This document shows, one piece after another, positions 6,001-47,703 of a stretch of 64,000 bases of DNA. The stretch is from a virus (Duplodnaviria > Caudoviricetes), in IMG/VR virus record IMGVR_UViG_3300033463_000004, positions 96,001 through 160,000 of that record. One strand, 5' to 3'. Below the pieces are notes generated by a model. It had not been told where the DNA came from. It made no database searches and saw only the letters and a program-made list of their open reading frames with translations. Position 1 is the first letter of the stretch, and every line of letters begins with the position of its first letter. The translations under genes were made by a program, and so were the position numbers.

Positions 6001-6360
6001 TTTTGATGCAATCTTATGCATTTCACGATTACGTGCACGTATAAGATCTTTCATGTTATCTGCATCAAGAACTTTTGTTTCTTGTTCTTCTGAATTATTA
6101 TATCTGAAACCCGCATCAAATTCTTCATCGTCAGTTTCTAATGGAGAAGTTGTATTATATGGATCTTCAGATTTATTTGAGAACCATTGGAATACAGAAC
6201 GAATATGTTTGTTATTACGTTTTAATTCAGAAACTTGAAGTGACGTGTTTTGATATGTTCCCATGATACTCGACTTAATCTTTGAGGCGTCTGTTGCAAT
6301 TTGTCGAACGGTTGTGTACGTCGACGAATGTGACAATATATCACTCATCAAGTTTGCCAT
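1..6360 (-). CDS. Giant tail-associated peptidoglycan hydrolase / tape-measure-like protein, paralog B, with three NlpC/P60-like domains (3' end beyond left edge, >2120 aa)
   Basis: Not in the ORF track because no stop is reached. ATG at 6360 follows GAAAGGAAGTG. Manual translation of several segments stays in one open frame to base 1: MANLMSDIL...DDEEFDAGF...KVLD, homologous to the 13978 gene; NGSPMDGIYGSGD near 2900; Cys-His domains VHCTAMM...AGDI...HAHMG (~2330-1700), PDCSG...LEPGDIL...GHLTM (~1610-1050), AMCTG...AGDI...HAHMA (~930-300). Not every codon was checked. Confidence 0.8.
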   Translation of the reverse strand, partial: MANLMSDILSHSSTYTTVRQIATDASKIKSSIMGTYQNTSLQVSELKRNNKHIRSVFQWFSNKSEDPYNTTSPLETDDEEFDAGFRYNNSEEQETKVLDADNMKDLIRARNREMHKIASKQIESKLYNASMIISTINDRSAETLASLRTIDSTTLEISKKLDLLIQSSSNMLDQIRKEQRKNQLHQSSGRLTVDSLSNYIKNNRQQVTKSITESLMDMTGLTVIDRKVNEKVQSFQHNLLTKIFEIPFIKKHMNPYGSYVKDYGRFVEGGFDRNPAIFDNMVRKTIISIIPDYLKQITNALTGKKYNIAANGSLTTAAIENKFVKSIDVTFDSTSISESQIKETYESVKNIDDEFTSADMREVLRIMVQQYVYYIYSSEHSTNHLSPDFFINGGDQGLHLHIAELLAKGKGKTAKYWLDIISVYSSKLIADKNYRSNFASAINRALYGLDNAAKRNIAESSKVTDVQFTQKMFDLRALERMKYDSSRFEFEGKTLRQLIRDGYVQRESLSKEQLEELDKPITSFADLNEKIEDSATDVMENLLMGQQRNRLLIISKIFEILNRGVNVYFVNANKGFKSIKAQHTTRDKMNEKPQLETNVDVPVVTVPEKTSENKTDEEDEEKVNEASYMLMASASSGNTNANNITQQLGTMRNFNVQQRLKTIVSGSIERSSKKEEKKSFIGKTFLFILSTAKSFFTKIISGAKLFLNNSVTNFVKSMLSDSVNKMKTGANAVKEGFTGIKTRVKPRQHTKTTTKSEQKTATTNDSDSLFGGLTDMLKESAPGKAISNIGNKIKDKLGKSEFGQGVLSSFSKHQKEKSKITPSSLSDQSSEKIDSILSSTSPMGSVFNKIFNVIDDIQDQFKNLFDTALNKQKAEEEKKKQQQKQKKKSLAFDMGKILGGLLGVLSGILQAVLTVVVSMKGFKLITDMIHKVLTNSLKPLNKAFQSLYKAIKPTMKTIGKVLNKIVSYLSDIVISIIDIMQPIFEAIGPLLEQMMDILKPILKIVTDVLDILVVPLTAVMETVIVPIIQGVANAFQIITGILQVGLGTIITVHGWILSAIGVLTLSLGSGSLYEKGKEIAKSGENLFKSGVDNVTSGLKSSIALATSSMNKLLGTSEKTSTSDETEKKLVNQKQTTINKLNGSPMDGIYGSGDERAPYKFDDSVQEALSNIKSLASGIFSLFDIDQADTETKLQTAKDKEAYTKAQFDAAGLDDDARKEIDDRAFELFKSTINNEQLHGETDEEYRARYEKDKEKYWTMAAAEIVKERVKKNADATESDAISLINETLFGKDDNGENSFEKFFKEEDKKAQSNSGKLFQALADFINAARDDDEYYDDEYYYEGGTGDIFQAASEVFTAVRKRAGSDLHWNGTSVTDVEFDDGMVIDKISPVHCTAMMAAIVKRMGYYLPSNGRQYSDTYQGDDQMYQVSGQHGSSSWGWGASDGHPNIYDRDGNVSQDWIFGGPGGAQAGDITFNGTGGAHAHMGAYQGADGNWFGFNGGADDSLASSVKLGEYYLKHGQFPTDTKLNPVPGRWFNDHQWTDQLGAIAPPMSYWIRYVGPKTKAKRRKVKKSSSRKGSGNLGKDDLIESAAEIFEAYQKTNPSVTYSNGLWPNSITTRSGHTRQIRPDCSGTMSAAIQELGYTLRDANGYDVGDIGLRSGTWGTQTKNTLIYDSPTAKTPSKDWTVLEYSKSKLEPGDILAFPPPPGNNSGHLTMPIVDLQGSPRGLDGGCGIAQSPAAAVAYLNGKKDIPWVYNGGMDRMKKIWRYNGTSVSSANSISRTKQQSKTLSTTKRSKGKSSASSSSLRGKKKVLTAASETFLAALKAQKRDHGPYGHGAILKNVRFDDGMVIDNMSAMCTGTQAAIVKRMGYYLPKDNNRNYTNTYQGNMYMGWANGTPGGWGINNSDGRPNIYDKNGKKSKDWIIANDGTYQAGDITLPSQANGRYDQTMWHAHMAAFQYGGQWYGFNGGDPTNNSESVKGQNIANYYLSHGSMPTNGSGIDINKYNSNGYNQGIVIRYVGSGDEYTPSAFDIPEIYDPSPILEFMSDPSMFGGYGEDYITPQLFENIPYEKIDGPMFVPDFDQNPAQIFDNTTPDQVYQGQIINTYTIKTGLEYLSNYID

Positions 6361-6404
6361 ATTCATTCACTTCCTTTCAATATAAAATTATAATTATGAA
6401 TACA

Positions 6405-6445: not shown

Positions 6446-9400
6446 TTATCCGACAGACAGACGTTCGACCTGTCTGGGGATACCTTGGTCTGGAAAAGCA
6501 GCTTCATTTGATTGCTTACTTGTCCGTCCTGTTGTGGATGCAGTTTGTCCACGTTTTTTACGTTCTTTCATCAACTTTAACATTCCGGCCAACAACGATT
6601 CGATCTCTTCGGAACGAATGTTGTACGTATTCGACATTAACATATCGATGACAGCATCACCGGTATGATCAACTGCATAATTATTTACGACAGTCGGATA
6701 TGCTTGTTGTTCAATTTGATCCATTGAGAACAATGATGACAATCCTTGATCGAATCCACCACCATAATTTGTAGATGGTATAAATACAGAAGATACATCA
6801 CCATTGCCTTTATTATTCAGCATGTCAACATATGATTGACGTCTTGAATGATCATTTGTTTCAGTATATGTTGTCGTACCTGTTGTAGATGAATTGTTAA
6901 TCACATTTATACCATTATTCACTTGCGCAGATGAAACATCTGGCCAATAAATTGAGCCATCTTTATTTACTCTGATTCTACCTGCAGATTTATTATTCTT
7001 AAAATAAACATTTCCATCTGATGTATCATAGTATAATTTATATCCATTATGATATGCATTATTGTTGAAATCATTCGCCATGTCACCACGGGACAATTTA
7101 TTTGCATAAGAATTTGAATAATTTGTATAAATAGCTTGCCAAATTTTACGCAAATCAACATCAGATGTTCCTGTTGTAATAACACTACTCTGTTGTGCCG
7201 TACTACTTGATGAATTCTTAAGTTGTTGCTCACCGTTGATGAAACTTCTTGCATTTTCACCAGCGTGTGTTTTATAATAACTATCTGTATCAACATAAAT
7301 CTTCATGAACTTTCCGCTACCTAAGTTTGCTTGTCGTTCAACATATTTATGTTTATTTGTAAACGCTTGTGCATCAGCAGTTGCATTTCCAGTTGGTACA
7401 TAGTAATCAAATAATTTTTGATTAGCTTTGTTATAGGCCGTACCAGTTCGTCCTGTTATTGTTGTTGAATATCTATATGGGGTACCATCCGTTTTATCAG
7501 ACAATGTGGTGTATGATGATTGAGCCGATGTTGCTGCAGCCGGAACAGTTGCGCCGAATCCTTCAGATTCAGTCAATGATGTTGGTGATGTTGATATTGT
7601 CGATGATGTATTATAACGAATATTAGATCTTCTACCACCTTCATCAATATACCCTTCATCAAGCAACCAGTTGTATACACCAACAGCTGTTCCAATATAC
7701 TTACGCGGACCTTCCATTTGGTGAATGACTGCAGGAACCAAAGCTGTACGATACCAATGTTCAGATCCTTCAATCAAATCTTCTTTATTCATATATGGTC
7801 CATATCGATCACCGAAGTCAAGAGCCCATCCGTCTCTACCTGTCGCAGCCATATATGCTCGTAAATCAGCATCGTCATATTGGTTATGTGACACAAGAGC
7901 ACGACCGTCTTTTGTATCCTCGTCAAAATATGTGCGTTGGATATATTGCAATTGTTTTTCAACTGTATCGCCATAATCAACACTCGTATCAACCCAGTTC
8001 ATTAGACCGACTGCCTGTTGACTATTCGAGTCATATGTGACATTTAAGAGTGATTTATCACCCCATAATTTATCACCACCGTCTTCCCAGATGCCCATAG
8101 ATGTTATAGCAGCAACTTCCGGACCTGTTAAACCAGCATCAAAAGCAGTTTGCATGAATTTTGAAACACCCGTTTTGTTTTTATGGAAAGACCAAATATC
8201 ACCAGCTTCAAGATCACCCTCATATTCAATTTCGCCGTATGGTGCATTACTACGACTACCTTCATGCCATTTAAAGAATGCATGAGGGTTCAAAATTTCA
8301 CCAGTATCGCCATCCCGGATTTCATAGTGCAAATGCTGACCTGTCGATTCACCGGTACTTCCCATGATACCGAGTTGATCGCCGCCATAAACGTAGTCAC
8401 CGACTTTAACCAATGGACCAGGATCTTCGCGCATATGTGCATAAAGGTGAATGTCTCCACCTTCGTCCTGAATTTTGACATAAGTTCCGTATCCGTCGCC
8501 ATATGATGTCTTAGCAGTTCCTATAACTACACCATCGGTTGTTGAAAGTATTGGGATATCACCGCCTAAAGTGAAGTCAACACCGGAGTGTGCACGTCCA
8601 TCATTAGTACCTTCTGCATCCTTATCAACAGGACGTCCACGCCATCTGAACGGACTTGACATCATAGTTCCCAATAACATCTTATCCATCCACTCACCCA
8701 TGACTGTGTTCGGAACAGCTGTACTAGTCCATCCAGTTGCATCATTTTCAAATACAGAAGGCTGATATTCATCTGTATACAACCGTGCACCATTATCAGA
8801 ATAGAATCCAGCATCTTCGTCATCATCCCAATAGTCACCAATCATATCTTGTAACTTGGAGAAGAACATTCCTTGTGATACACTGTCATTGTGTTTCTTC
8901 ATGCCTTCTGTTAAGCTGTCAAACAATCCACCTTTTCGTTCACCGGTTTCAGAATCAAATTCTCCAAGATTCTTTTTGATAAATCCTGGTAATGTTTCAT
9001 CTGTATAGCCAGCAGCTTTCTTGGCAGCATCTTCGAGACGTTTTGTACCAGCGACAGTGATATAGTGATTGTAAGTTGTGGTTTTCTTAAATCGTTTTTC
9101 ATATTCAGCGTTCGTTTCGCCTTTATATTTTGGATTTTCTTGTTTAAATAATTCAAATGCTTCTTTTTCTAATTTTTGTTTTTCTTCATCTGTCATATCA
9201 CCAAGATCAGTCAATACTTTATCATATTTCAATTTATCTTGTTCATTCTTGAGTTTTGCTTCAGTGCTTTCTTCACCTGTAAAGATTCCAATGATACCAC
9301 CGACAAGATCTTTCAATGTTTGCAACGCTTCTTGCACTTCGTCAGAGAACGAATATGGATATGTAGCATCACCAGATCCGTATACATTGAAAGCACCACG

Positions 9401-12400
9401 CGGAACATCACCGGAACCATACAAACCAGCAACAGAATTTGCTGCAAGTGAAGAAATTGAACGTCGTTCAATACGTCCATTCATTGGGTTAGAAACAAAT
9501 GCTGTTCCACCAGAAGAACCGATAACATTCATAAAGTGATTATTACCACTTCTGGTTGTGAAGTCTGTACCACTTCCTATCACAGTGATTGGATTACGTG
9601 GTGAAGCTTGTTTTAATGATGCAGGTGTAACACCACCGGCACGGAGATTCATACCCATGGATCCAGCAGTGTTCATAAATCCAGCCACAGAAGTTCCCAT
9701 GTTTGGATTATATGCACCAGAAGATGCCATAGCAGAAGTTAATCCACGCGCATTAACTGATGTACCTGAGCGTCTTGCATAAGCATCTGCTAATGCAATA
9801 GGTCCACAACCACGAGAATTCATATTCATGAAGTTTCCATAGCGGTTCTGGTTTGCTCCTGCACCACCATAGATGTTTCTGATATCACCATTACCATATA
9901 CGCCATCCATCGGTGAACCATTTAATGTGCCAATAATTTCTTGACGTTTTTGGACTTTTGTTTCTTCTTCAGGTTCCTCATTAGAATCATTTGTACCTAA
10001 TAAATTATTCATTGTATTTGTAGCGAGAGCAATACTACTCTTCAATCCAGAAGAAACATTGTCTACACCTGATTTGAATAAGTTCTCACCAGATTCTGCA
10101 ATTGCTTTACCTTTTTCATATAATGACGTTCCACCGAGTATTGATGTCAACACACCAATACCAGTCAATGTCCATCCGAGAACAGTTATGATTGTACCAA
10201 GTCCAACTTGAAGAATACCTGTGATAATTTGTAATGAGTTTCCAACACCTTGTAGAATAGGAACGACCACTGTCTGCATGATGGCAGTCAACGGAACAAC
10301 AAGTATGTTGATCGTGTCAGTGATCATATCAAGAATCGGTTTCAAAATTGTAAGCATTTGTTCGAGTAACGGACCAATTGCTTCAATGATAGGTTGAATA
10401 ATCTTGATAACAGATTCAACAATCTCAACAACATATCCGACAAGTTGTGTTAATACACGTTGGATCGTTTTCATAACAGGTTTGATGGCCTTATACAACG
10501 ATTGGAAAGCTTTGTTCAGAGGTTTCAAAGCAGTTTTCAAAACATTCATCGCAAGATTCATAATGGATTTTACTGCTTTCATGGACAATACAACTGTCAA
10601 TACAGCTTGTAATAATCCACCAAGTATTCCAGTAATACCACCAAGAATCTTACCAATGTCGAAACCAATACCTTTCTTTACAGCTCCAGCGGCAGCAGAT
10701 GCAGCAGAACCAGTAGCTCCACCAGTCATGTCAGTTGTTGCAGGCATTTGTACATTTTGTCGTTGACTTGAAACATTTTCATTGATATCAGCTAAGCTAA
10801 CAGTTGATTGTGATGATGTATCATCACCAATTGATGGCATAGAAGAACCGGTACCAGATATAGTTTCGGATTTACCAGATATTTTTGCAATACCTTCTTT
10901 TACGACGTCACCGATTCCAGCAAGTTTATTGACGATCGTTCCAAAGATAGATCCAGTACCGTCTTTGCTCTTCAAGATATCAACAATCGATTTTGTCATC
11001 TGATCACTCAGCGTCTGAGGTTTCATTTCTTTATTTGATTTTTTCTTTTCAAATGCAGATATAAAACCTTTACCAAAATCAGTTTGTTTAAATTTTTCGA
11101 CAAAATTGTTCATTGCTCGGGTGATTGCATTACCCTTTTTATTTTCTTCTTTTTGTTCGTTAATGTCACCACGTATCTTTTTGATTTCTTGTAATACTTC
11201 AGTATCACGACCACTCTTGATATCTTTACCTTCGCCCATATCTGATAATACAGGTGCACCAAGATCAATCAATGATGACGCAGAAACATCTGTCGTCAAC
11301 GTCTGTTTTGTTGATGTTGGTGTTTCATTGATATCAGATAACATACCATTCAAACGTCTGGATTCTTTATTTTCTCTCATTCTACCAAAGATACCAGATG
11401 ATTCATCCGAACCAAAGAATCCTTCTTTGATAGCATTTGCACCACCAAGAATTCTTTGTCCTGATTGTCTCAAACTGTTGATGATAGGTGAAAGTAATTT
11501 CTTTCCAAGTGTCGTAATGAATGTTTTTGCAGATTGTAATTTTGGTAAAATAAATCCTTTGACGATTCCGAATCCCCAAGTCAATATTTTACCAAGTTTT
11601 GATTGTGCTGGTTTCTTATTTTCTGCACGTTGTAAAGTTCCTTCAACAACTTTCGACAAACGCGCTTTCAGTTTTGGATTCTTGATTTCACTGATCTGTT
11701 GCATCAGTGGTCCAGTATCTTCTTTGGTATCACCATCTTGAACAGATGCATTCATTGCAGCCAGAACAGAATCAGCAATGTATTTATCATTCTTATCGTC
11801 TTCAGAATCACCTAATCCCGCAGCAGTACGTTGTGCCATTACACGATTATAGTCGATTGAAGCAGAATCAATCGTCATTGCTTTTAATGAAGTCATGTCA
11901 GTAGAAAGACGTTCCTTCATTTTATTGATTGGCTTCATCACAAAATTCTTTGCAGAATTAATAGTATCCGACAAAGGATTACCAGATGATGGCATATCTG
12001 GTTGCTGATGATCACCATCTGTTTCTTCACCAGAAATTGTTGGAATTTGAACAGATGGGATCGGAGTAGGTTGTTCATGAGTCAGAGTTGATTGTGGTGA
12101 TGCTGGTGTGTTTTGCTGTGCTTTCTGTAATTCAATTGGTACATATGGTTTATTTCTTCGACGTACAGCATATACATTAACACCACGATTCAGTATTGTG
12201 AATATAGATGCCAAGTAATCAACTGTTGATGCTGTTACATCACGGAAAGTTACACCAATATTACCAATCAACTCAGATTGTTTAATACGTTCACGACGTG
12301 CTTGTTTCAATGCTTCGTCGGATGCACGTGAATTTGGATCAACCCATTTGGGAATATCGCTTCGTTTGATTTCACCTGCTTCAGCACGCTCATTCCATGT

Positions 12401-13978
12401 ACGGTCATCTTTACCAGAAGCATTTTTAACATATCCACCAACAATATTACTGACCATTTCATCGGTAATTTCGCCAATGTCATATGTAACAGTTGCAGTT
12501 TCAGCATATCGTTTTGCACGAGAATGTGAACTTGTTGCGCCTTGACGGATTGTACGAGCAAAGGCATCACGTGAATTACTGTCAGTCATCAATTTCGTTA
12601 TAATCAATTGAATGACTGATGTCCAATATGCACGACCGTGTTTGTTGTTGTCACCTTGTGTCAAATAATCAATTGCTTGATCATTGACTTCAGGCAATCC
12701 ACCATTTTCAAACATTTTTCCTTGTGTTGCACGACCAGATACACGCATCTCATGGAATATGTATAAAGATACAAGAACACGTTGTGCAATAAACACATCA
12801 TTCTTATCAATGTCAGAAGATGCTTGTTTCATCATTTCGTCTATTCGACGTGAATTAAAACCACTTTGAATTGTTGATGAAAATACATTTTGGAATTCAC
12901 GAGGACGTTCCGTCGACAAACTACCTTCGGATGATACATACAAATTCTCACCAGTTAACGCAGCAGTGATTCTTCTCAAATAGCCAGGAATAACATCAAT
13001 AATCGTTTTACGTGTCATATTATCAAAGACAGCTTTTTCACGATTGTATTGATTGTCGATATATGTTGAATAATCGCGATTTTTTTCACGTGCAGACAAA
13101 TCACCAAATAACTTTTTGAATTTATCCCAATCCAAAAGTTTTGATAATAAATTATTTTGTGCATTGTTTACACGTTCATCGATTGCATCACGAATTTCAT
13201 CAATTGAACGATTATCGAGAATTCGAAGTTTTTTATCCGCAGCCAAACCGGTCATCAAACCTGCTAAAGAACCAAAACCTTCCGCTTTATTACTTGATGC
13301 TTGGAATATCATCGGAAGCATCTCTGCACCAGTTTTCAACAAACTTAATTCAGTTTGATAAGGAAGATTTTGTTTCAAATAATTAATAGTATTCCCGAGT
13401 GTCAAATTTCCAGATGAATCGAATAATGATTGTTGACGTGCCCGTTCTTGTGTTGCAACTGTACTTAATTCGATTAATTTATCAAGTTTTCCGGAAATCG
13501 TTTGTAAAGATGAATTGATATTACCCAAAGATGATAAGATTTCCGATGAACGGGTATTCATCGTCGTAATGATTTCAGATGCAGTCATCGCAGAAGCTTC
13601 TGTTTGTTTACCTGCAATCTGATACATGGAGCTGACTTGACCTTTGGCAATATCCTTCATGCCATCATAATCAAGAACTTTTGACGACGATGTATCCGAG
13701 TCTCCATCATCAAAATTAAATCCGGCATCAAATTCATCATCATTATCATTTTCAAATGATGATTTCTCACCGAATTCAGATCCACGATGGAAGAACCAAT
13801 CTGTTACCTTTTTAAAACCAGATGAATTTCGAATCTCACGATATTTATCTTGAGCAGTCTTAGCACCACCCATCAATGTATCACGTATATTCTCTGCATC
13901 TGATTTCAAATCCGATAAAGATTCAGGAGCAACTGATGAAACAAAACCCTTCGTGAAATCAAGCATCAAATTTGCCAT
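6446..13978 (-). CDS. Giant tail-associated hydrolase / tape-measure-like protein, paralog A (~2510 aa) with C39-like peptidase, M23 peptidase and phage-tail-lysozyme-like domains
   Basis: Start moved to MANLMLDF at 13978 (RBS GAAAGGGGTG). Long helical and amphipathic tape-measure-like middle region; GCGPIALA...NNHF...VSNP (C39-like, ~9870-9420); HSGVD...HLYAHM...STGQHLHYE (M23, ~8660-8270); GLTGPEVAAI...WEDGG...GLMNW...QLQYI (tail-lysozyme-like, ~8170-7650). Confidence 0.8.
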   Translation of the reverse strand: MANLMLDFTKGFVSSVAPESLSDLKSDAENIRDTLMGGAKTAQDKYREIRNSSGFKKVTDWFFHRGSEFGEKSSFENDNDDEFDAGFNFDDGDSDTSSSKVLDYDGMKDIAKGQVSSMYQIAGKQTEASAMTASEIITTMNTRSSEILSSLGNINSSLQTISGKLDKLIELSTVATQERARQQSLFDSSGNLTLGNTINYLKQNLPYQTELSLLKTGAEMLPMIFQASSNKAEGFGSLAGLMTGLAADKKLRILDNRSIDEIRDAIDERVNNAQNNLLSKLLDWDKFKKLFGDLSAREKNRDYSTYIDNQYNREKAVFDNMTRKTIIDVIPGYLRRITAALTGENLYVSSEGSLSTERPREFQNVFSSTIQSGFNSRRIDEMMKQASSDIDKNDVFIAQRVLVSLYIFHEMRVSGRATQGKMFENGGLPEVNDQAIDYLTQGDNNKHGRAYWTSVIQLIITKLMTDSNSRDAFARTIRQGATSSHSRAKRYAETATVTYDIGEITDEMVSNIVGGYVKNASGKDDRTWNERAEAGEIKRSDIPKWVDPNSRASDEALKQARRERIKQSELIGNIGVTFRDVTASTVDYLASIFTILNRGVNVYAVRRRNKPYVPIELQKAQQNTPASPQSTLTHEQPTPIPSVQIPTISGEETDGDHQQPDMPSSGNPLSDTINSAKNFVMKPINKMKERLSTDMTSLKAMTIDSASIDYNRVMAQRTAAGLGDSEDDKNDKYIADSVLAAMNASVQDGDTKEDTGPLMQQISEIKNPKLKARLSKVVEGTLQRAENKKPAQSKLGKILTWGFGIVKGFILPKLQSAKTFITTLGKKLLSPIINSLRQSGQRILGGANAIKEGFFGSDESSGIFGRMRENKESRRLNGMLSDINETPTSTKQTLTTDVSASSLIDLGAPVLSDMGEGKDIKSGRDTEVLQEIKKIRGDINEQKEENKKGNAITRAMNNFVEKFKQTDFGKGFISAFEKKKSNKEMKPQTLSDQMTKSIVDILKSKDGTGSIFGTIVNKLAGIGDVVKEGIAKISGKSETISGTGSSMPSIGDDTSSQSTVSLADINENVSSQRQNVQMPATTDMTGGATGSAASAAAGAVKKGIGFDIGKILGGITGILGGLLQAVLTVVLSMKAVKSIMNLAMNVLKTALKPLNKAFQSLYKAIKPVMKTIQRVLTQLVGYVVEIVESVIKIIQPIIEAIGPLLEQMLTILKPILDMITDTINILVVPLTAIMQTVVVPILQGVGNSLQIITGILQVGLGTIITVLGWTLTGIGVLTSILGGTSLYEKGKAIAESGENLFKSGVDNVSSGLKSSIALATNTMNNLLGTNDSNEEPEEETKVQKRQEIIGTLNGSPMDGVYGNGDIRNIYGGAGANQNRYGNFMNMNSRGCGPIALADAYARRSGTSVNARGLTSAMASSGAYNPNMGTSVAGFMNTAGSMGMNLRAGGVTPASLKQASPRNPITVIGSGTDFTTRSGNNHFMNVIGSSGGTAFVSNPMNGRIERRSISSLAANSVAGLYGSGDVPRGAFNVYGSGDATYPYSFSDEVQEALQTLKDLVGGIIGIFTGEESTEAKLKNEQDKLKYDKVLTDLGDMTDEEKQKLEKEAFELFKQENPKYKGETNAEYEKRFKKTTTYNHYITVAGTKRLEDAAKKAAGYTDETLPGFIKKNLGEFDSETGERKGGLFDSLTEGMKKHNDSVSQGMFFSKLQDMIGDYWDDDEDAGFYSDNGARLYTDEYQPSVFENDATGWTSTAVPNTVMGEWMDKMLLGTMMSSPFRWRGRPVDKDAEGTNDGRAHSGVDFTLGGDIPILSTTDGVVIGTAKTSYGDGYGTYVKIQDEGGDIHLYAHMREDPGPLVKVGDYVYGGDQLGIMGSTGESTGQHLHYEIRDGDTGEILNPHAFFKWHEGSRSNAPYGEIEYEGDLEAGDIWSFHKNKTGVSKFMQTAFDAGLTGPEVAAITSMGIWEDGGDKLWGDKSLLNVTYDSNSQQAVGLMNWVDTSVDYGDTVEKQLQYIQRTYFDEDTKDGRALVSHNQYDDADLRAYMAATGRDGWALDFGDRYGPYMNKEDLIEGSEHWYRTALVPAVIHQMEGPRKYIGTAVGVYNWLLDEGYIDEGGRRSNIRYNTSSTISTSPTSLTESEGFGATVPAAATSAQSSYTTLSDKTDGTPYRYSTTITGRTGTAYNKANQKLFDYYVPTGNATADAQAFTNKHKYVERQANLGSGKFMKIYVDTDSYYKTHAGENARSFINGEQQLKNSSSSTAQQSSVITTGTSDVDLRKIWQAIYTNYSNSYANKLSRGDMANDFNNNAYHNGYKLYYDTSDGNVYFKNNKSAGRIRVNKDGSIYWPDVSSAQVNNGINVINNSSTTGTTTYTETNDHSRRQSYVDMLNNKGNGDVSSVFIPSTNYGGGFDQGLSSLFSMDQIEQQAYPTVVNNYAVDHTGDAVIDMLMSNTYNIRSEEIESLLAGMLKLMKERKKRGQTASTTGRTSKQSNEAAFPDQGIPRQVERLSVG

Positions 13979-14012
13979 ATCAACTTCACCCCTTTCAATA
14001 TATAATAATACC

Positions 14013-14046
14013 AAAAGATGGGTGTGGGCCTAAGAGCCCACACATC
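14013..14046 (-). terminator. Rho-independent terminator
   Basis: GTGTGGGC/GCCCACAC stem followed by TTTT on the minus strand, just after the 14069 stop. Confidence 0.6.
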
Positions 14047-35172: not shown

Positions 35173-35446
35173 TTCATACAATATAAATGGTATTTTTCTT
35201 TTAGAAATTTTTTTAAATTTTGAAATATATAATCATTCCGATGAATGATTTCATATCATTTATTTCAAGTATGTACTTGGAAATTCATACGTCATTATAC
35301 TTGGGATTATTTTCAAAATTTAAGTATTAAATTAAGAACTCCCTAAAATGAATACTATATAAAGAATATAATAAATGAGATTGACAAAAATTTAATCTAT
35401 TTCCAATAGATTCTCTCATTCAATAGAAAGGAGGTTGCTTTTAATT

Positions 35447-36190
35447 ATGCGCAACACACGTTGTCCTTTTTGTGGAAAAATATATAATGACAAACATAAA
35501 TTTTGTAATCATATTGCAATGCAACATAATGAACAAATTCCAGAAGATCAACAACCTTTAGAATTTGCATATTCATTATTAGTACATAAACCAACAGGAA
35601 GAGTTTGTGTAATATGCAGAAAAAATCCTGTTCGATTCAATAACGAGACATTGAAATACGATAGACTGTGTGACAATCCTGCATGTAAAGATGAATATGT
35701 CAAAATTATGAAAGCCCGTATGGTAAAAGTACACGGACAAGAACATCTTCTCAATGATGCAGACATGCAACGAAAAATGATTTATAATCATCACAATGCA
35801 AAAGATTTTATTTGGGATGATGAACATAAATTCAGAATCATTGGAACATACGAAGAAGATTTCTTACGAAAGATGAAATCAATTGGTTGGTCTCCAAATG
35901 ATATTATTGCTCCATCTCCAAATAATTATTGGTACAAATGGAAAGATGGTACCACACATTTGTATATCCCTGATTTCTATATTCCTTCTCTATCATTGGA
36001 AGTTGAAATCAAAGAATCGGATAATCAACATCCAAGAATGGAACATGAGCGCGAAATGGAAGCGCTCAAGGATAAACGTCTTGCTGCTGAAGAGAAGACG
36101 ACGAATATCCATTACATCAAGATCGTTGACAAAAAATACGATGAATTCATGCGAGACTATGTTAAGTCTGATGAAAATAAACCAGATTGA
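35447..36190 (+). CDS. Zinc-finger plus TnsA-like PD-(D/E)XK endonuclease
   Basis: CPFC...H...H, CVIC...C...C zinc motifs; HLYIPDFYIP...EVEIK nuclease motif; ATG at 35447 after AAGGAGG. Confidence 0.7.
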   Translation: MRNTRCPFCGKIYNDKHKFCNHIAMQHNEQIPEDQQPLEFAYSLLVHKPTGRVCVICRKNPVRFNNETLKYDRLCDNPACKDEYVKIMKARMVKVHGQEHLLNDADMQRKMIYNHHNAKDFIWDDEHKFRIIGTYEEDFLRKMKSIGWSPNDIIAPSPNNYWYKWKDGTTHLYIPDFYIPSLSLEVEIKESDNQHPRMEHEREMEALKDKRLAAEEKTTNIHYIKIVDKKYDEFMRDYVKSDENKPD

Positions 36191-37620: not shown

Positions 37621-37761
37621 ATGGCAAAACCTAGAAAAACTGAAAATCCGGATGAAATCTTAAAGTGGATTAATCCGGACATGGATGAAGAAACCTCTAA
37701 CGGTAAAGACGAAGATGAACTGGATTTGCCAGAAGAAAAGAAGGAGGATGAATCATCATGA
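37621..37761 (+). CDS. Small acidic protein (46 aa) translationally coupled to the endolysin
   Basis: Below the ORF-track cutoff; RBS AAGGAGGAG; MAKPRKTENPDEILKWINPDMDEETSNGKDEDELDLPEEKKEDESS; its TGA overlaps the endolysin ATG (ATGA). Confidence 0.7.
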   Translation: MAKPRKTENPDEILKWINPDMDEETSNGKDEDELDLPEEKKEDESS

Positions 37762-39608
37762 GTAACTTCACAAATTCCCCGTTAGTATCGTATACAAGAA
37801 TTTCTCCTAACAGAAATTCTCCACGTACTGAAGACAAGATCACGAAGATCATTATTCACCATATGGCAGGTGTTGCATCCGTTGAATCATTTGGTGAATT
37901 GGTTGCAAATCCTCAACGTGAGATGTCAGCAAACTATGCAATCGGCAATGATGGACGCATTGGTCTTTACTGTGAAGAAAAAGATAGATGTTGGTGTTCA
38001 TCTTCCAGATGGGCAGACAATCGTGGAATCGCGATTGAAGTATCAAATTCCAAACTCGGTGAACCATGGCCAATATCCAAGAAGGCATGGGATTCTATGA
38101 TCAATCTGTGTGCAGACATCTGTAAACGTAATGGTATTCCAAAGATGACATATACCGGAGACAAAGACGGTGTATTGTGTTTCCATCGTTGGTTTGCTGC
38201 GACAGGTTGTGTTCCGATTGATACTACTGAAGTATTGACACCAACTGGATGGGTTCCGATCCGAGATATCAAAGTTGGTGATGTAATTGCAACTGTGAAT
38301 CCGCGTGATTTTTCAATTAAATTTGATACAGTTGAAAATATGACTCCAGTTCATAAAGACACTGTATTCAAATTGAATGGAATGGATATCACGCGTGAGC
38401 ATCGTGTATTATATACATCAAATGATATCATTGGGTACAAACTTGATGAATATCAAAAGATTTGTAATCAAGCATTCACAGTACCAACTGCTGGAACATA
38501 TGAAACATCCGGAATGGATATCACATCTTCGGAAATGGTATTTCTTCTTGAGATACAACGTGTCGGTTCATATGATGAAAAGAATAAATATATCGAATTC
38601 CATTATATATCCGAACAGAAAGTTGGATATATGGATGGTCTCTTGAAGAATCTTGGATACAAATATGCAAGAGAACAAGAAGATCTGGGTCCTGTGAAAT
38701 TCACAATTACAGATCCTCGTGCATGGTCGCTTTGTAAAACTTATCTGTCTGGAATAGATTTCAACTGGAAATGGTTGAAGATGAATCCAACACAATTCTC
38801 ATACTTTATTTACAAAGCAACATCGCATGTCGATACTGGTTGGACACGCCGTTATGTGTCTGAATCTATTGTAAACATTGACATCGTTCAAGCATTGTGT
38901 GCTCTGAATGAACGGGGATCTCATTACATTCCTGAGGAAAATGCGTTGTATGTCAACGATGCATATAGAATGATTCACACTCATAATGTGAAAACACAAG
39001 AAGATGTTGATGTTGCTTGTGTCACTGTGAAAAGCGGATGCTTCCTGATGCGTCAATGTGGTACAACAACATTGACAGGCAACTGTCCTGGTGAATATAT
39101 TTATTCTCGAGCACAACAGATCTGTGATGAAGTCAATGCAAAGCTTGCTAAGATGAAAGATGATGCAAAACCTGAACCTGTTGTTGAACCCCAGAAACCT
39201 GCAGATGAGGTAAAACCATCACCATCAACAGCAATTGTTCCATATCTGAAAAGAATTGAACAAGGTACACGTGTGTACAACATTGATACATTAACTTCAG
39301 GACGAGTTGTTCCGATGACATCAGTATACACGATAGTCGAGGAAAGAATTGTCAATGGTACAAAATATGGAAAAATGAAGTCTGGTATTGGTTGGATTAT
39401 ACTCGAAACCAATATTGCAACCAGTAATCAGTTTTTCCCTGGTGATACTGTAGCACCTATTCAACCGATAACATATGATGGAAAAGCATTTGTTATCTAT
39501 GAGAAATCATATAAAGTTCTTCGAGTGAATGGAGATCGTGTCGTAATCTCTTCTGATGGTGTGAATGTCACTGCTGCCGTCAGAGCTTCTAATTTAATGA
39601 AACTTTAA
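37758..39608 (+). CDS. N-acetylmuramoyl-L-alanine amidase (Amidase_2) endolysin interrupted by an intein
   Basis: IIIHHMAG, SANY.IG.DG.I, IAIEVSN, HRWF..TG|CPG amidase motifs; C-terminal SH3-like YTIVEE...YGKMKSGIGWI cell-wall-binding region. Confidence 0.88.
   Translation: MSNFTNSPLVSYTRISPNRNSPRTEDKITKIIIHHMAGVASVESFGELVANPQREMSANYAIGNDGRIGLYCEEKDRCWCSSSRWADNRGIAIEVSNSKLGEPWPISKKAWDSMINLCADICKRNGIPKMTYTGDKDGVLCFHRWFAATGCVPIDTTEVLTPTGWVPIRDIKVGDVIATVNPRDFSIKFDTVENMTPVHKDTVFKLNGMDITREHRVLYTSNDIIGYKLDEYQKICNQAFTVPTAGTYETSGMDITSSEMVFLLEIQRVGSYDEKNKYIEFHYISEQKVGYMDGLLKNLGYKYAREQEDLGPVKFTITDPRAWSLCKTYLSGIDFNWKWLKMNPTQFSYFIYKATSHVDTGWTRRYVSESIVNIDIVQALCALNERGSHYIPEENALYVNDAYRMIHTHNVKTQEDVDVACVTVKSGCFLMRQCGTTTLTGNCPGEYIYSRAQQICDEVNAKLAKMKDDAKPEPVVEPQKPADEVKPSPSTAIVPYLKRIEQGTRVYNIDTLTSGRVVPMTSVYTIVEERIVNGTKYGKMKSGIGWIILETNIATSNQFFPGDTVAPIQPITYDGKAFVIYEKSYKVLRVNGDRVVISSDGVNVTAAVRASNLMKL
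38208..39083 (+). mobile_element. Intein (292 aa) with degenerate LAGLIDADG-type endonuclease region
   Basis: Block A CVPIDTTEVLTPTGW.PI..IKVGD; block B ITREHRV; blocks F/G VACVTV.SG.F....GN followed by +1 Cys; removal restores FAATGCPG. Confidence 0.88.
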
Positions 39609-46391: not shown

Positions 46392-46886
46392 TTATTCAGT
46401 TTCTTCTTTGTCGGTGTCTTTTGGAAATACATTCGGTGGGTCTGTATGTGACGGGAACTCAATAGAAGGATCAAGATCTTGAAGAGTTTTTTCAAGCCAG
46501 TCACGATAACGTTTATCATCACCGGTAACCCAGTTCATCAATGATGTAAGCTTCTGTTTCAAATCGTCAACACTTGATTTCAACGATGTTGATTCAGCAT
46601 GAAGCTTTTCATTTGATTCACGAAGTTCTTTGATCTCTTCTTTGAGTTCATCAATGGTTGCCTTGGCGGTATCTTTAAACTCATTGAATTGAGCCTTTGT
46701 CTCTTCATTGAGTTCCTTAAAAGATTTCTTGATATATTCCATCTCAGTCTCTTCGTTCTGTACACGAATAGAGTCTGCTTCAGCTTTGAATTTCTTTCGG
46801 GATAATACTGTCGTCAAGATGGATGTGATACCACCACCGCCAAGTGCACTGACAATTGCAATGACTACATCTGAAGTGTCCATCAT
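46392..46886 (-). CDS. Membrane-anchored coiled-coil protein (possible lysis accessory)
   Basis: N-terminal TM VVIAIVSALGGGGITSILTTVL followed by basic residues and a coiled coil; close to the holin. Confidence 0.55.
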   Translation of the reverse strand: MMDTSDVVIAIVSALGGGGITSILTTVLSRKKFKAEADSIRVQNEETEMEYIKKSFKELNEETKAQFNEFKDTAKATIDELKEEIKELRESNEKLHAESTSLKSSVDDLKQKLTSLMNWVTGDDKRYRDWLEKTLQDLDPSIEFPSHTDPPNVFPKDTDKEETE

Positions 46887-47280: not shown

Positions 47281-47703
47281 TTAGCTGTCTTCGGATTCTG
47301 TTTCGGTTTCTTCCTCCGAAACATCATCACATTCAATCGGAGACTCATCGTCAATATCATCAATATCAACGATTGCATCTTCTTCGATTTCTTCTGTTAC
47401 GGATTCTTCTTCATCATTAGATGTAGGCGATTTCTTCAATTGTTTGAATACCTGATGGTATCCTGTTGCAGAAGCACCAGAAGCAAGACCGAAGAAAATT
47501 GCTTCGACAATGTTATTGCCCATTGTGACATTTGGCATGAAGTATCCGATTATGCCAAGAATCACACCGAATACGAGAGAGAAGATCGGAATGTATCGTT
47601 TGATCTTTTCCTCGTCACCTGTGATTGCAACAGCGATAATTTTTACGACTTCATTCAAAGCGACAACAAACGCGGCAAGAGTAATTGCTGTGAATTCCAA
47701 CAT
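47281..47703 (-). CDS. Holin (three TM segments, long acidic C-terminal tail)
   Basis: Start at 47703 (RBS AAAGGAG); RYIPIFSLVFGVILG and AIFFGLASGASATGYHQVFKQ are typical of Firmicute phage holins. Confidence 0.75.
   Translation of the reverse strand: MLEFTAITLAAFVVALNEVVKIIAVAITGDEEKIKRYIPIFSLVFGVILGIIGYFMPNVTMGNNIVEAIFFGLASGASATGYHQVFKQLKKSPTSNDEEESVTEEIEEDAIVDIDDIDDESPIECDDVSEEETETESEDS

What the first reader, a model, noticed from the sequence alone, without database searches (positions are those of the whole stretch)
37758..39608. Intein-gated endolysin: intein inserted at the amidase Zn-ligand cysteine, homing endonuclease decayed
Seen: a 292-aa intein (Cys151 to Asn442, nt 38208-39083) splits HRWFAATG|CPG, so the +1 splicing nucleophile is the Cys of the T-x-C-P-G motif. 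The splice blocks look intact (C1, TREH, terminal Asn; penultimate Gly rather than His). The central LAGLIDADG-like blocks have lost their acidic catalytic residues (FLLEIQRVGS, FIYKATSHVDTG). Known: in Amidase_2/T7-lysozyme enzymes this Cys is the third Zn ligand; inteins sit mostly in replication, repair and packaging ATPases, and Zn2+ and thiol redox state modulate splicing. Inference: the precursor is catalytically dead until spliced, and a non-mobile intein retained here may have been domesticated as a post-translational switch (Zn, redox or time) for lysis.
Basis: partly seen in the sequence, partly recalled or inferred. Interest (0 to 1): 0.8.

Follow-up and report, generated by a model that had tools for sequence, protein, structure and literature searches.

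The report
Endolysin intein with dead homing endonuclease
The cell-wall-cutting lysis enzyme of a 263-kb uncultured jumbo phage is split at its zinc-binding cysteine by a genuine self-splicing intein that can probably no longer move but is still kept intact by selection; a role as a lysis switch is possible but unsupported.

Summary
ORF 37758-39608 encodes a 616-aa Amidase_2 endolysin. A 292-aa insert (Cys151-Asn442, nt 38208-39083) lies between the second zinc histidine and the zinc cysteine.

- **The insert is an intein.** It models at pLDDT 95 as a Hint domain plus a LAGLIDADG domain. Its best fold matches are the TliVMA, PI-SceI and PI-PfuI inteins. The splice residues Cys1, TxxH, Asn and Cys+1 are invariant in 119 relatives.
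- **The family is very large and, as far as I found, unpublished.** It comprises amidase-resident inteins from metagenomes. This scan has noted the same allele on other DNA.
- **Sister clade B** keeps both catalytic Asp residues and is scattered among intein-free alleles, so it looks mobile.
- **Clade A, which includes the query,** lost both Asp residues and a basic patch on one long stem branch. It occupies essentially one extein lineage of syntenic jumbo phages.
- **The dead domain is not decaying.** Its length is constant, dN/dS is about 0.1-0.2, and there are new invariant residues.

An intein-free allele inside the lineage, a holin gene nearby and a cytoplasmic enzyme argue against an obligatory lysis gate. 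Best reading: a fixed, immobile intein that splices constitutively. Exaptation remains open, at about 0.2.

The parts
37741..37747 (+). Shine-Dalgarno AAGGAGG, 10 nt before the ATG
   Evidence: read directly from the sequence
37758..39608 (+). precursor ORF, 616 aa (about 69.4 kDa), stop codon included
37758..38207 (+). N-extein, aa 1-150: Amidase_2 catalytic domain up to T-G, with the zinc histidines H34/H35 and H143
   Evidence: Pfam PF01510 57.8 bits; PHROG endolysin; invariant His columns in A2 and A3
38208..39083 (+). intein, aa 151-442 (292 aa, about 33.5 kDa)
   Evidence: AF2 pLDDT 95; Foldseek matches to TliVMA, PhoVMA, PI-SceI and PI-PfuI inteins; boundaries fixed by intein-free alleles
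38208..38210 (+). Cys151 = intein Cys1 (block A nucleophile)
   Evidence: invariant in 119/119 relatives
38391..38402 (+). block B, T212-R-E-H215 (TxxH)
   Evidence: His and the following Arg are invariant, Thr at least 90%
38505..38957 (+). LAGLIDADG-fold domain, aa about 250-400, catalytically dead but conserved
   Evidence: alpha-beta-beta-alpha-beta-beta-alpha twice in the model; Foldseek matches to I-DmoI, I-SceI and WhiA; dN/dS 0.1-0.2
38541..38567 (+). former LAGLIDADG motif 1, F262-G270 (FLLEIQRVG); Val269 stands where clade B has the catalytic Asp
   Evidence: position 269: Asp 55/55 in clade B, Ile/Val/other 64/64 in clade A
38805..38840 (+). former LAGLIDADG motif 2, F350-G361 (FIYKATSHVDTG); Val358 stands where clade B has the catalytic Asp; T355, H357 and W362 are new clade-A invariants
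39012..39083 (+). blocks F and G, aa 419-442: Cys421 at F:4, Thr440 at G:5, Gly441 at G:6, Asn442 at G:7
   Evidence: Cys, Gly and Asn invariant in A1
39084..39605 (+). C-extein, aa 443-616: Cys443 (+1 nucleophile and third zinc ligand), P-G, a Pro/Lys-rich linker and a C-terminal module with no Pfam or PHROG match (presumed wall binding)
47281..47703 (-). holin homologue (140 aa, hydrophobic segments and an acidic tail), the likely timer of lysis
   Evidence: phrog_1299 and phrog_1129 holin, E 2.5e-12; hydropathy scan

Best explanation
This is a genuine class-1-type intein (Hint splicing domain with a nested LAGLIDADG-fold domain) in the Amidase_2 endolysin of a 263-kb jumbo phage. It is inserted so that its +1 residue is the enzyme's third zinc ligand. 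It belongs to a very large intein family specific to this amidase site. Its ancestors were ordinary homing inteins, and the sister clade still looks like one. On the stem of the query's clade the endonuclease lost both catalytic Asp residues and a conserved basic patch. The element can therefore no longer home. It is now inherited with the lysin gene in a lineage of syntenic jumbo phages. It must still splice, because the lysin needs its zinc cysteine joined to the rest of the fold. Selection therefore keeps the whole intein foldable, including the dead endonuclease domain nested in it. I infer that splicing is constitutive and that lysis timing is left to the holin. Shown: the anatomy, the fold, the family, the loss of catalytic residues, purifying selection and the distribution. 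Inferred: that it splices, that the endonuclease is inactive, and that the constraint on the dead domain is structural.
For: Fold: pLDDT 95, pTM 0.91; Foldseek E 7e-11 to 3e-6 against TliVMA, PhoVMA, PI-SceI and PI-PfuI, then I-DmoI and I-SceI. Splice residues are invariant in 119 relatives and intein length is 290-313 aa. Zinc site: H-x7-C-P aligns with T7 lysozyme His122/Cys130. Family size: 1093 full-length matches and 321 50%-identity clusters at E<=1e-30. 79 of 86 representative N-exteins are Amidase_2. Canonical state: 149 of 168 related intein domains have Asp/Glu at both LAGLIDADG positions, as does clade B in 55/55 sequences. Loss: clade A (64 sequences) has Ile/Val at 269 and Val/Glu at 358. 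Net charge of the domain is -4.3 in clade A against +0.1 in clade B, and the conserved K/R run of clade B is absent. Single origin: clade A is monophyletic (support 100) on a stem of 1.03 substitutions per site. Distribution: at least 31 presence/absence changes on the extein tree. Clade-B inteins sit singly next to intein-free sisters at near-zero branch lengths. Clade-A inteins fill one extein clade (62 tips) with one intein-free tip. The 30 N-exteins closest to the query (77-90% identity) all carry the intein. Gene order is conserved (nuclease, variable ORF, amidase, small ORF, DNA polymerase) in five to six jumbo contigs. Intein GC is 37.2%, the genome's 37.3%. A penultimate Gly spliced completely in a tested phage intein (PMC5050341). 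A holin homologue is present.
Against: A purely structural constraint does not obviously explain three things. First, the dead domain is better conserved than the N-terminal splicing lobe in clade A (58% against 50% mean identity), whereas in clade B, where it is presumably an active enzyme, it is less conserved than the splicing lobes (63% against 71-78%). Second, new invariant residues (E265, T355, H357, W362) replace the old active site. Third, a free-standing relative without any splice residue keeps the clade-A signature (P0407). The homing-cycle model (PMC3229294) predicts decay towards a mini-intein, and none of 64 clade-A sequences shows that. Splicing and endonuclease inactivity are not shown experimentally. 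Fixation is firmly sampled only for the query's own subclade. dS is saturated for most pairs.
Confidence: 0.55

Rival explanations
1. Domesticated lysis gate. The immobile intein is retained because slow or condition-dependent splicing (zinc, thiol redox, temperature, time) controls when active amidase appears.
For: Long retention with purifying selection over the whole intein. Three cysteines lie at or near the splice site (C151, C421 at F:4, C443). The +1 Cys doubles as a zinc ligand. The gene sits among replication genes on the + strand and so may be expressed before the late genes. Conditional inteins exist in other proteins (PMC6195587, PMC5050341).
Against: There is no signal peptide or membrane anchor, so the precursor stays in a reducing cytoplasm. 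A holin homologue is present. An intein-free allele sits within the same extein clade (P0305), and a related phage has an intein-free amidase at the syntenic position (L005). The same splice-site chemistry occurs in the mobile clade B, so nothing at the junctions is special to the fixed clade. Penultimate Gly went with fast, complete splicing in the one tested phage case (PMC5050341).
Confidence: 0.12
2. Exaptation of the former endonuclease domain for something other than gating. The remodelled domain, either in the precursor or as the excised 33.5-kDa protein, binds a ligand, protein or nucleic acid. This would resemble WhiA, which reuses a catalytically dead LAGLIDADG fold.
For: A long stem branch is followed by tight conservation. 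There are new invariant residues at the old active site. The ratio of endonuclease-domain to splicing-domain conservation is higher than in the active clade. Free-standing ORFs P0407 and P0444 keep the fold signature but no splice residue. WhiA is among the fold matches.
Against: The domain became acidic and lost its basic run, which argues against DNA binding. The free-standing ORFs are seen on only one and two short contigs. No partner or ligand is suggested by any result. The intein-free allele P0305 shows that the lysin lineage can do without it.
Confidence: 0.15
3. Still mobile. The domain cleaves or nicks DNA with non-canonical residues (for example E265, H357, D359), or the intein is spread by recombination between co-infecting phages or by another nuclease acting in trans.
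For: Conserved polar residues lie at the old active site. The Mantel correlation between extein and intein distances is only 0.59, the same as in clade B, so some exchange is not excluded. Clade-B inteins occur in clade-A-like exteins (P0094, P0102, P0106), which shows that empty sites existed in this lineage.
Against: Both metal-binding Asp residues are absent in 64/64 sequences. E265 lies one helical turn away from the canonical position. The basic DNA-contact run is lost and net charge is negative. Clade-A inteins are confined to one extein clade, unlike clade B.
Confidence: 0.08
4. Not a splicing element. It is a permanent insertion that leaves the amidase inactive or altered, that is, a pseudo-lysin or a repurposed protein.
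For: Pfam and NCBIfam do not recognise the insert. The penultimate His is absent. The phage has another peptidoglycan hydrolase candidate (a CHAP ORF).
Against: Every residue needed for splicing is invariant across deep divergence. The exteins are under strong purifying selection (dN/dS 0.02-0.15). The fold is that of solved splicing-competent inteins.
Confidence: 0.03

Closest known systems
LAGLIDADG-containing inteins with solved structures: TliVMA and PhoVMA (7QSU, 7QSS, 7QST), PI-SceI (1VDE, 1LWS), PI-PfuI (1DQ3)
   Same: Same two-part architecture, a Hint splicing domain interrupted by a two-lobed LAGLIDADG domain. They are the best Foldseek matches (E 7e-11 to 3e-6, TM 0.5-0.66). They share Cys1, TxxH, terminal Asn and a +1 nucleophile, and insertion at an active-site residue of the host protein.
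   Different: Sequence identity is only 9-12%. The host is a lysis enzyme, not an ATPase or polymerase. The insert is smaller (292 aa) and has no extra DNA-recognition region. The penultimate residue is Gly. In the query's clade both catalytic Asp residues are replaced.
Mycobacteriophage class-1 inteins without a penultimate His, for example the Bethlehem gp51 RDF intein (PMC5050341)
   Same: A phage intein with Cys1 and a penultimate Gly. The tested example splices completely, and changing Gly to His slows it.
   Different: Those inteins sit in DNA-related proteins and the tested ones have active endonucleases. No mycobacteriophage lysin A among 224 examined carries an intein (PMC3314691).
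Amidase_2 / T7-lysozyme-type endolysins, for example Faecalibacterium phage FP_Epona endolysin and T7 gp3.5
   Same: The N-extein is 55% identical to the FP_Epona endolysin over residues 4-151. It passes the Pfam Amidase_2 threshold. The H...H-x7-C-P zinc motif matches T7 His122/Cys130 (the ligand identities are from my knowledge of Cheng et al. 1994).
   Different: These enzymes are uninterrupted. No record among 50,697 GenBank phage genomes covers 80% or more of the precursor.
Class 3 inteins (WCT motif), for example the AceL NrdHF intein 6ZGQ
   Same: Cys at block F:4 and Thr at G:5, both conserved here. 6ZGQ is among the fold and profile matches.
   Different: Cys1 is present and invariant, and B:12 is Val rather than Trp. 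Cys is the second commonest residue at F:4 overall (PMC4031507). This intein is therefore not class 3.
WhiA (3HYI), a bacterial regulator built on a catalytically dead LAGLIDADG fold
   Same: A LAGLIDADG fold that lost its acidic residues yet is conserved; it appears among the fold matches (ranks 18-19).
   Different: WhiA is free-standing and binds DNA. The domain here is nested in an intein, is acidic, and has no shown function.
Long-persisting inteins, such as fungal PRP8, discussed against the homing-cycle model (PMC3229294)
   Same: Long vertical persistence under purifying selection rather than decay and loss.
   Different: In those cases the endonuclease is described as retained. Here the catalytic residues are gone.

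Membership tests
Intein (protein-splicing Hint element, class 1) | Hint (HINT) fold | tested here: met
   AF2 model at pLDDT 95; Foldseek probability 1.0 to solved inteins and mini-inteins; profile match to the RecA mini-intein at E 7e-4. Pfam Hint_2 reaches only E 0.15.
Intein (protein-splicing Hint element, class 1) | N-terminal nucleophile (Cys/Ser1) and block B TxxH | tested here: met
   Cys151 is invariant in 119/119. T212-x-x-H215 is present, with His invariant.
Intein (protein-splicing Hint element, class 1) | C-terminal Asn followed by a Cys/Ser/Thr +1 residue | tested here: met
   Asn442|Cys443, invariant.
Intein (protein-splicing Hint element, class 1) | penultimate His (G:6) | tested here: not met
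   Gly441, invariant in the family. This is an assisting residue, not a defining one. Inteins without it splice (PMC5050341 and Chen et al. 2000, cited there).
Intein (protein-splicing Hint element, class 1) | in-frame insertion absent from otherwise collinear homologues | tested here: met
   177 intein-free homologues read T-x-C-P-G across the site.
Intein (protein-splicing Hint element, class 1) | protein splicing demonstrated | not testable with these tools
   Needs expression; predicted masses are 69.4 kDa giving 35.9 + 33.5 kDa.
Active LAGLIDADG homing endonuclease | two-lobed alpha-beta-beta-alpha-beta-beta-alpha fold | tested here: met
   Secondary-structure order in the model; Foldseek matches to I-DmoI, I-SceI and I-Tsp061I.
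Active LAGLIDADG homing endonuclease | acidic residue ending each LAGLIDADG helix | tested here: not met
   Val269 and Val358 in the query. Clade A has 0/64 Asp at 269, and Val (36) or Glu (23) at 358. Clade B has Asp 55/55 at both.
Active LAGLIDADG homing endonuclease | sporadic distribution among closely related intein-free alleles | tested here: not met
   Clade A is confined to one extein clade and fixed in the query's subclade. The feature is met for clade B.
Active LAGLIDADG homing endonuclease | site-specific DNA cleavage | not testable with these tools
   Needs an enzyme assay.
Amidase_2 (T7 lysozyme / PGRP type) endolysin | Pfam PF01510 above the gathering score | tested here: met
   57.8 bits against a cut-off of 26. 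It is the only Amidase_2 match in the genome.
Amidase_2 (T7 lysozyme / PGRP type) endolysin | His, His, Cys zinc triad | tested here: met
   H34/H35, H143 and Cys443 after splicing. These columns are invariant in A3. H-x7-C-P aligns with T7 His122/Cys130, although hhalign statistics are weak (E 0.038).
Amidase_2 (T7 lysozyme / PGRP type) endolysin | cell-wall-binding module and holin partner | tested here: inconclusive
   The C-terminal 174 aa have no Pfam or PHROG match. A holin homologue lies 7.7 kb away on the other strand.
Class 3 intein | no N-terminal nucleophile; Trp B:12, Cys F:4, Thr G:5 | tested here: not met
   Cys1 is present and B:12 is Val217. Only Cys421 (F:4) and Thr440 (G:5) fit (definitions from PMC5050341).
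Conditional (sensor) intein | splicing shown to depend on redox state, metal or temperature | not testable with these tools

The most novel reading that the evidence does not exclude
After the homing endonuclease died, its domain was rebuilt on one long branch and has since been held by selection for a new job. The job could be tuning when the lysin is spliced, or a function of the excised 33.5-kDa protein. That would make this a rare exapted intein in a lysis enzyme. Free-standing descendants (P0407-like ORFs) that have shed all splicing residues would fit this reading.
Probability: 0.2. Interest if true: 0.75.

Novelty: new member of a known kind. Interest (0 to 1): 0.5.

Why it matters
Inteins are textbook residents of replication, repair and packaging proteins. 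I found no paper reporting one in an endolysin, and a survey of 224 mycobacteriophage lysins found none (PMC3314691). Yet public metagenomes hold hundreds of diverged clusters with an intein at the zinc cysteine of Amidase_2 lysins.

The family contains a natural contrast. One clade has an intact endonuclease and a patchy, mobile-looking distribution. A sister clade has a dead endonuclease, is fixed in a jumbo-phage lineage, and is still under purifying selection. This pair makes two long-standing questions directly testable. What keeps an immobile intein whole? Can an intein be co-opted by its host?

There is also a practical point. Endolysins mined from metagenomes for enzybiotic use will be mis-sized, and may be inactive in expression hosts, if the intein goes unrecognised. 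Pfam and NCBIfam do not flag it.

Tried and rejected
1. Pfam, NCBIfam and single-sequence PDB searches barely see the insert (Hint_2 E 0.15, BIL domain E 0.02). Identification rests on the fold and on the family alignment.

2. I first took helix 371-383 for the second LAGLIDADG helix and concluded that the whole superfamily had only one acidic motif. I withdrew the earlier conclusion.

3. A class 3 mechanism was considered because of Cys at F:4 and Thr at G:5. I rejected it because Cys1 is invariant and B:12 is not Trp.

4. Mantel and nearest-neighbour comparisons of intein and extein trees gave the same value in both clades (r 0.59), so they do not separate vertical from horizontal descent.

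5. dN/dS: most pairs have saturated dS (median pS about 0.7). Only L099/L101 (dS about 0.2) and two or three pairs near dS 1 are usable.

6. Mapping the zinc ligands through PDB sequence searches failed: the alignments stop before the His...Cys motif. The T7 comparison succeeded only at motif level.

7. A megablast of 10 kb around the gene against GenBank phages found nothing.

9. The tools do not give model coordinates, so I could not check whether the new invariant residues cluster in space.
Full report
**What is there**

The + strand ORF 37758-39608 is intact, has a strong ribosome-binding site (AAGGAGG, 10 nt upstream), and encodes 616 aa. Residues 26-131 match Pfam Amidase_2 at 57.8 bits against a cut-off of 26. 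Residues 5-151 match PHROG endolysin families at E 1.6e-44. GenBank phage endolysins, such as that of Faecalibacterium phage FP_Epona (55% identity), align to residues 4-151 and then stop.

Intein-free relatives read H-x5-T-x-C-P-G straight through. The query instead reads ...H143-R-W-F-A-A-T-G | C151 ...

**Is the insert an intein?**

Sequence libraries hardly see it: Hint_2 scores E 0.15, a bacterial intein-like domain E 0.02, and NCBIfam finds nothing.

The fold is clear. An AlphaFold2 model built on 64 relatives has mean pLDDT 95 and pTM 0.91.
- Its best matches among solved structures are the TliVMA, PhoVMA, PI-SceI and PI-PfuI inteins (E 7e-11 to 3e-6).
- Next come free-standing LAGLIDADG enzymes (I-Tsp061I, I-SceI, I-DmoI), WhiA and several mini-inteins.

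In 119 aligned relatives, Cys1, the block B His and the Arg after it, the block F Cys, Gly-Asn at the end, and Cys+1 are invariant. The insert is 290-313 aa in all complete sequences.

The penultimate residue is Gly in the whole family. A mycobacteriophage class-1 intein with a penultimate Gly splices completely, and is slowed when His is put in (PMC5050341). This is therefore not a defect.

Cys at F:4 and Thr at G:5 recall class 3 inteins. However, Cys1 is invariant and B:12 is Val, and Cys is the second commonest F:4 residue overall (PMC4031507). I file it as class-1-type.

**The insertion site**

The Amidase_2 zinc triad of T7 lysozyme is His17, His122 and Cys130 (my knowledge of Cheng et al. 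1994). A profile of intein-free relatives aligns its H-x7-C-P with T7 His122...Cys130. The statistics are weak (E 0.038), but the motif match is exact. The same His, His and Cys columns are invariant in the alignments.

The +1 splicing nucleophile is therefore the third zinc ligand. The precursor is most likely inactive. That is an inference, and it holds for most inteins, which typically sit at active-site residues.

**How common is it?**

- The whole precursor has 1093 database relatives.
- A profile of the intein alone finds 321 clusters (50% identity representatives) at E<=1e-30 among 1.84 billion proteins.
- Of 86 representatives with a single intein near the N-terminus, 79 have an Amidase_2 N-extein.
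- More distant relatives of the intein sit in long multi-intein proteins.

I found no paper describing an intein in an endolysin or amidase. A study of 224 mycobacteriophage lysins states that none is interrupted by an intein (PMC3314691). Earlier notes of this scan report the same allele, and inteins in other lysin types, on other DNA.

**Two clades of amidase inteins**

The relatives fall into two clades.

| Feature | Clade B (55 sequences) | Clade A (64 sequences, includes the query) |
|---|---|---|
| LAGLIDADG motif 1 | F-L-V-A-V-Q-A-D-G, Asp in 55/55 | F-L-L-E-x-Q-[RK]-[IV]-G, no Asp in 64 |
| LAGLIDADG motif 2 | F-M-D-A-I-L-Q-Y-D-G, Asp in 55/55 | ...K-x-T-x-H-[VE]-[DN]..W, Val (36) or Glu (23) at the Asp position |
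| Net charge of the domain | +0.1 | -4.3, and the conserved K/R run of clade B is gone |

Clade B shows the normal state of the wider superfamily: 149 of 168 related intein domains have Asp or Glu at both positions.

On an intein tree rooted with inteins from other host proteins, clade A is monophyletic (support 100). It sits on a stem of 1.03 substitutions per site. The endonuclease was therefore disabled once, in the ancestor of clade A.

**Mobility**

I built a tree of the catalytic exteins from 291 proteins, 114 with and 177 without an intein. It needs at least 31 gains or losses of the intein.
- Clade-B inteins are scattered singly, often next to an intein-free sister at almost zero branch length. 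This is the pattern expected of an element that still homes.
- Clade-A inteins fill essentially one extein clade: 62 tips, one intein-free tip (P0305), and three tips carrying clade-B inteins.
- When the database is ranked by N-extein similarity alone, the 30 closest clusters (77-90% identity) all carry the intein.
- The related contigs are 83-278 kb and share the gene order nuclease, variable ORF, amidase, small ORF, DNA polymerase.
- The query genome is a 262,694-bp virus record rated 98% complete. It holds this one intein and this one Amidase_2 gene.
- Intein GC equals genome GC.

There is a caveat. Fixation is well sampled only for the query's own subclade. Distance-matrix tests did not separate the clades.

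**Is the endonuclease domain decaying?**

No.
- Its length is constant across clade A.
- In clade A its mean pairwise identity is 58%. The splicing lobes are at 50% and 57%, and the N-extein at 71%.
- In clade B the domain (63%) is less conserved than the splicing lobes (71-78%).
- For the one pair with unsaturated dS (L099/L101, dS about 0.2), dN/dS is 0.11 for the domain, 0.16 for the N-terminal splicing lobe and 0.02 for the N-extein. Pairs near dS 1 give 0.06-0.23 for the domain.
- In all 91 pairs, uncorrected pN/pS stays below 0.6.
- New residues are invariant in clade A where the active site was: E265, T355, H357 and W362.

So 'decayed' is right for catalysis and probably for DNA binding, but wrong for the domain as a whole.

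**What this means for the 'gated endolysin' idea**

For some retained function:
- the selection pattern just described;
- the contrast with the homing-cycle expectation of decay to a mini-intein (PMC3229294);
- a free-standing 297-aa ORF (P0407, on L106) that keeps the clade-A signature but has lost Cys1, TxxH, the block F Cys and the terminal Asn.

Against a lysis gate in particular:
- the lysin has no signal or anchor sequence, so splicing would take place in a reducing cytoplasm;
- a holin homologue lies at 47281-47703 on the other strand (E 2.5e-12), so the usual timer is present;
- an intein-free allele (P0305) is nested in the same extein clade, next to an intein-bearing sister;
- a related contig has an intein-free amidase beside the same DNA polymerase (L005);
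- the splice junctions are the same in the mobile clade B.

**Verdict**

I conclude that this is a fixed, immobile intein that must splice for the lysin to work and most likely does so constitutively (0.55). An exapted domain is a live minority reading: about 0.15 for an unspecified new function, and about 0.12 for a lysis gate. A residual non-canonical nuclease (0.08) and a non-splicing insertion (0.03) are unlikely.

The element is a new member of a known kind: a LAGLIDADG intein in an unreported class of host protein. The contrast between clades A and B is the part most worth an experiment.

Noticed in passing
L106:465-1358 (protein P0407); L107:188-1081 and L108:93-986 (protein P0444): These are free-standing 297-aa ORFs homologous to the whole intein. 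They lack Cys1, TxxH (TGEQ in P0407), the block F Cys and the terminal Asn. P0407 keeps the clade-A motifs (VFLLITQEYG; T-x-H....W), has its own intergenic spacer, and is followed by a CmpB-like membrane protein (PF06541). They may be ex-inteins with a new role, or may be relics. They are seen on only one and two short contigs respectively.
   Followed up: partly
window 47281-47703 (-) and 46392-46886 (-): The first is a holin homologue: 140 aa, phrog_1299 E 2.5e-12, with a very acidic C-terminal tail. The second, next to it, is a 164-aa protein with one N-terminal hydrophobic segment and a coiled coil, with weak 'hol-like' PHROG matches. Both lie 7-8 kb from the lysin on the opposite strand.
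   Followed up: partly
G000:C1:94682-94942, about 1.3 kb before the window's first base: A CHAP-domain match (E 3.7e-15) lies in a 322-aa open frame. It is a second peptidoglycan hydrolase candidate in the same phage and could be either a virion-associated or a lytic enzyme.
   Followed up: no
window 35435-36190 (+): A 251-aa protein matches PHROG 'endonuclease' (phrog_15137, E 1.7e-40). It is 80-93% identical in all related jumbo contigs, more conserved than the lysin exteins. It therefore looks like a core gene rather than a selfish homing nuclease.
   Followed up: partly
L005:3501-4440 (IMG/VR contig of 26.8 kb): A related phage fragment carries an intein-free amidase of 319 aa (63% N-extein identity) directly upstream of a DNA polymerase that is 57% identical to the window's. 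It is an empty site at the syntenic position.
   Followed up: partly
proteins P0094, P0102, P0106: Clade-B inteins with canonical catalytic motifs sit in exteins that belong to the clade-A lineage. Intein-free targets must therefore have been available in that lineage, or one intein type replaced the other.
   Followed up: no
window 1-6366 (-) and 6446-14014 (-): Two giant ORFs (more than 2122 aa, running off the window, and 2522 aa) lie head to tail on the minus strand. I did not examine them.
   Followed up: no
MT835481.1, 60231-61184 (hit H3): An unannotated 74.7-kb human-gut phage record matches only the intein part (residues 150-443, 27% identity). It is presumably a related intein in another gene.
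   Followed up: no
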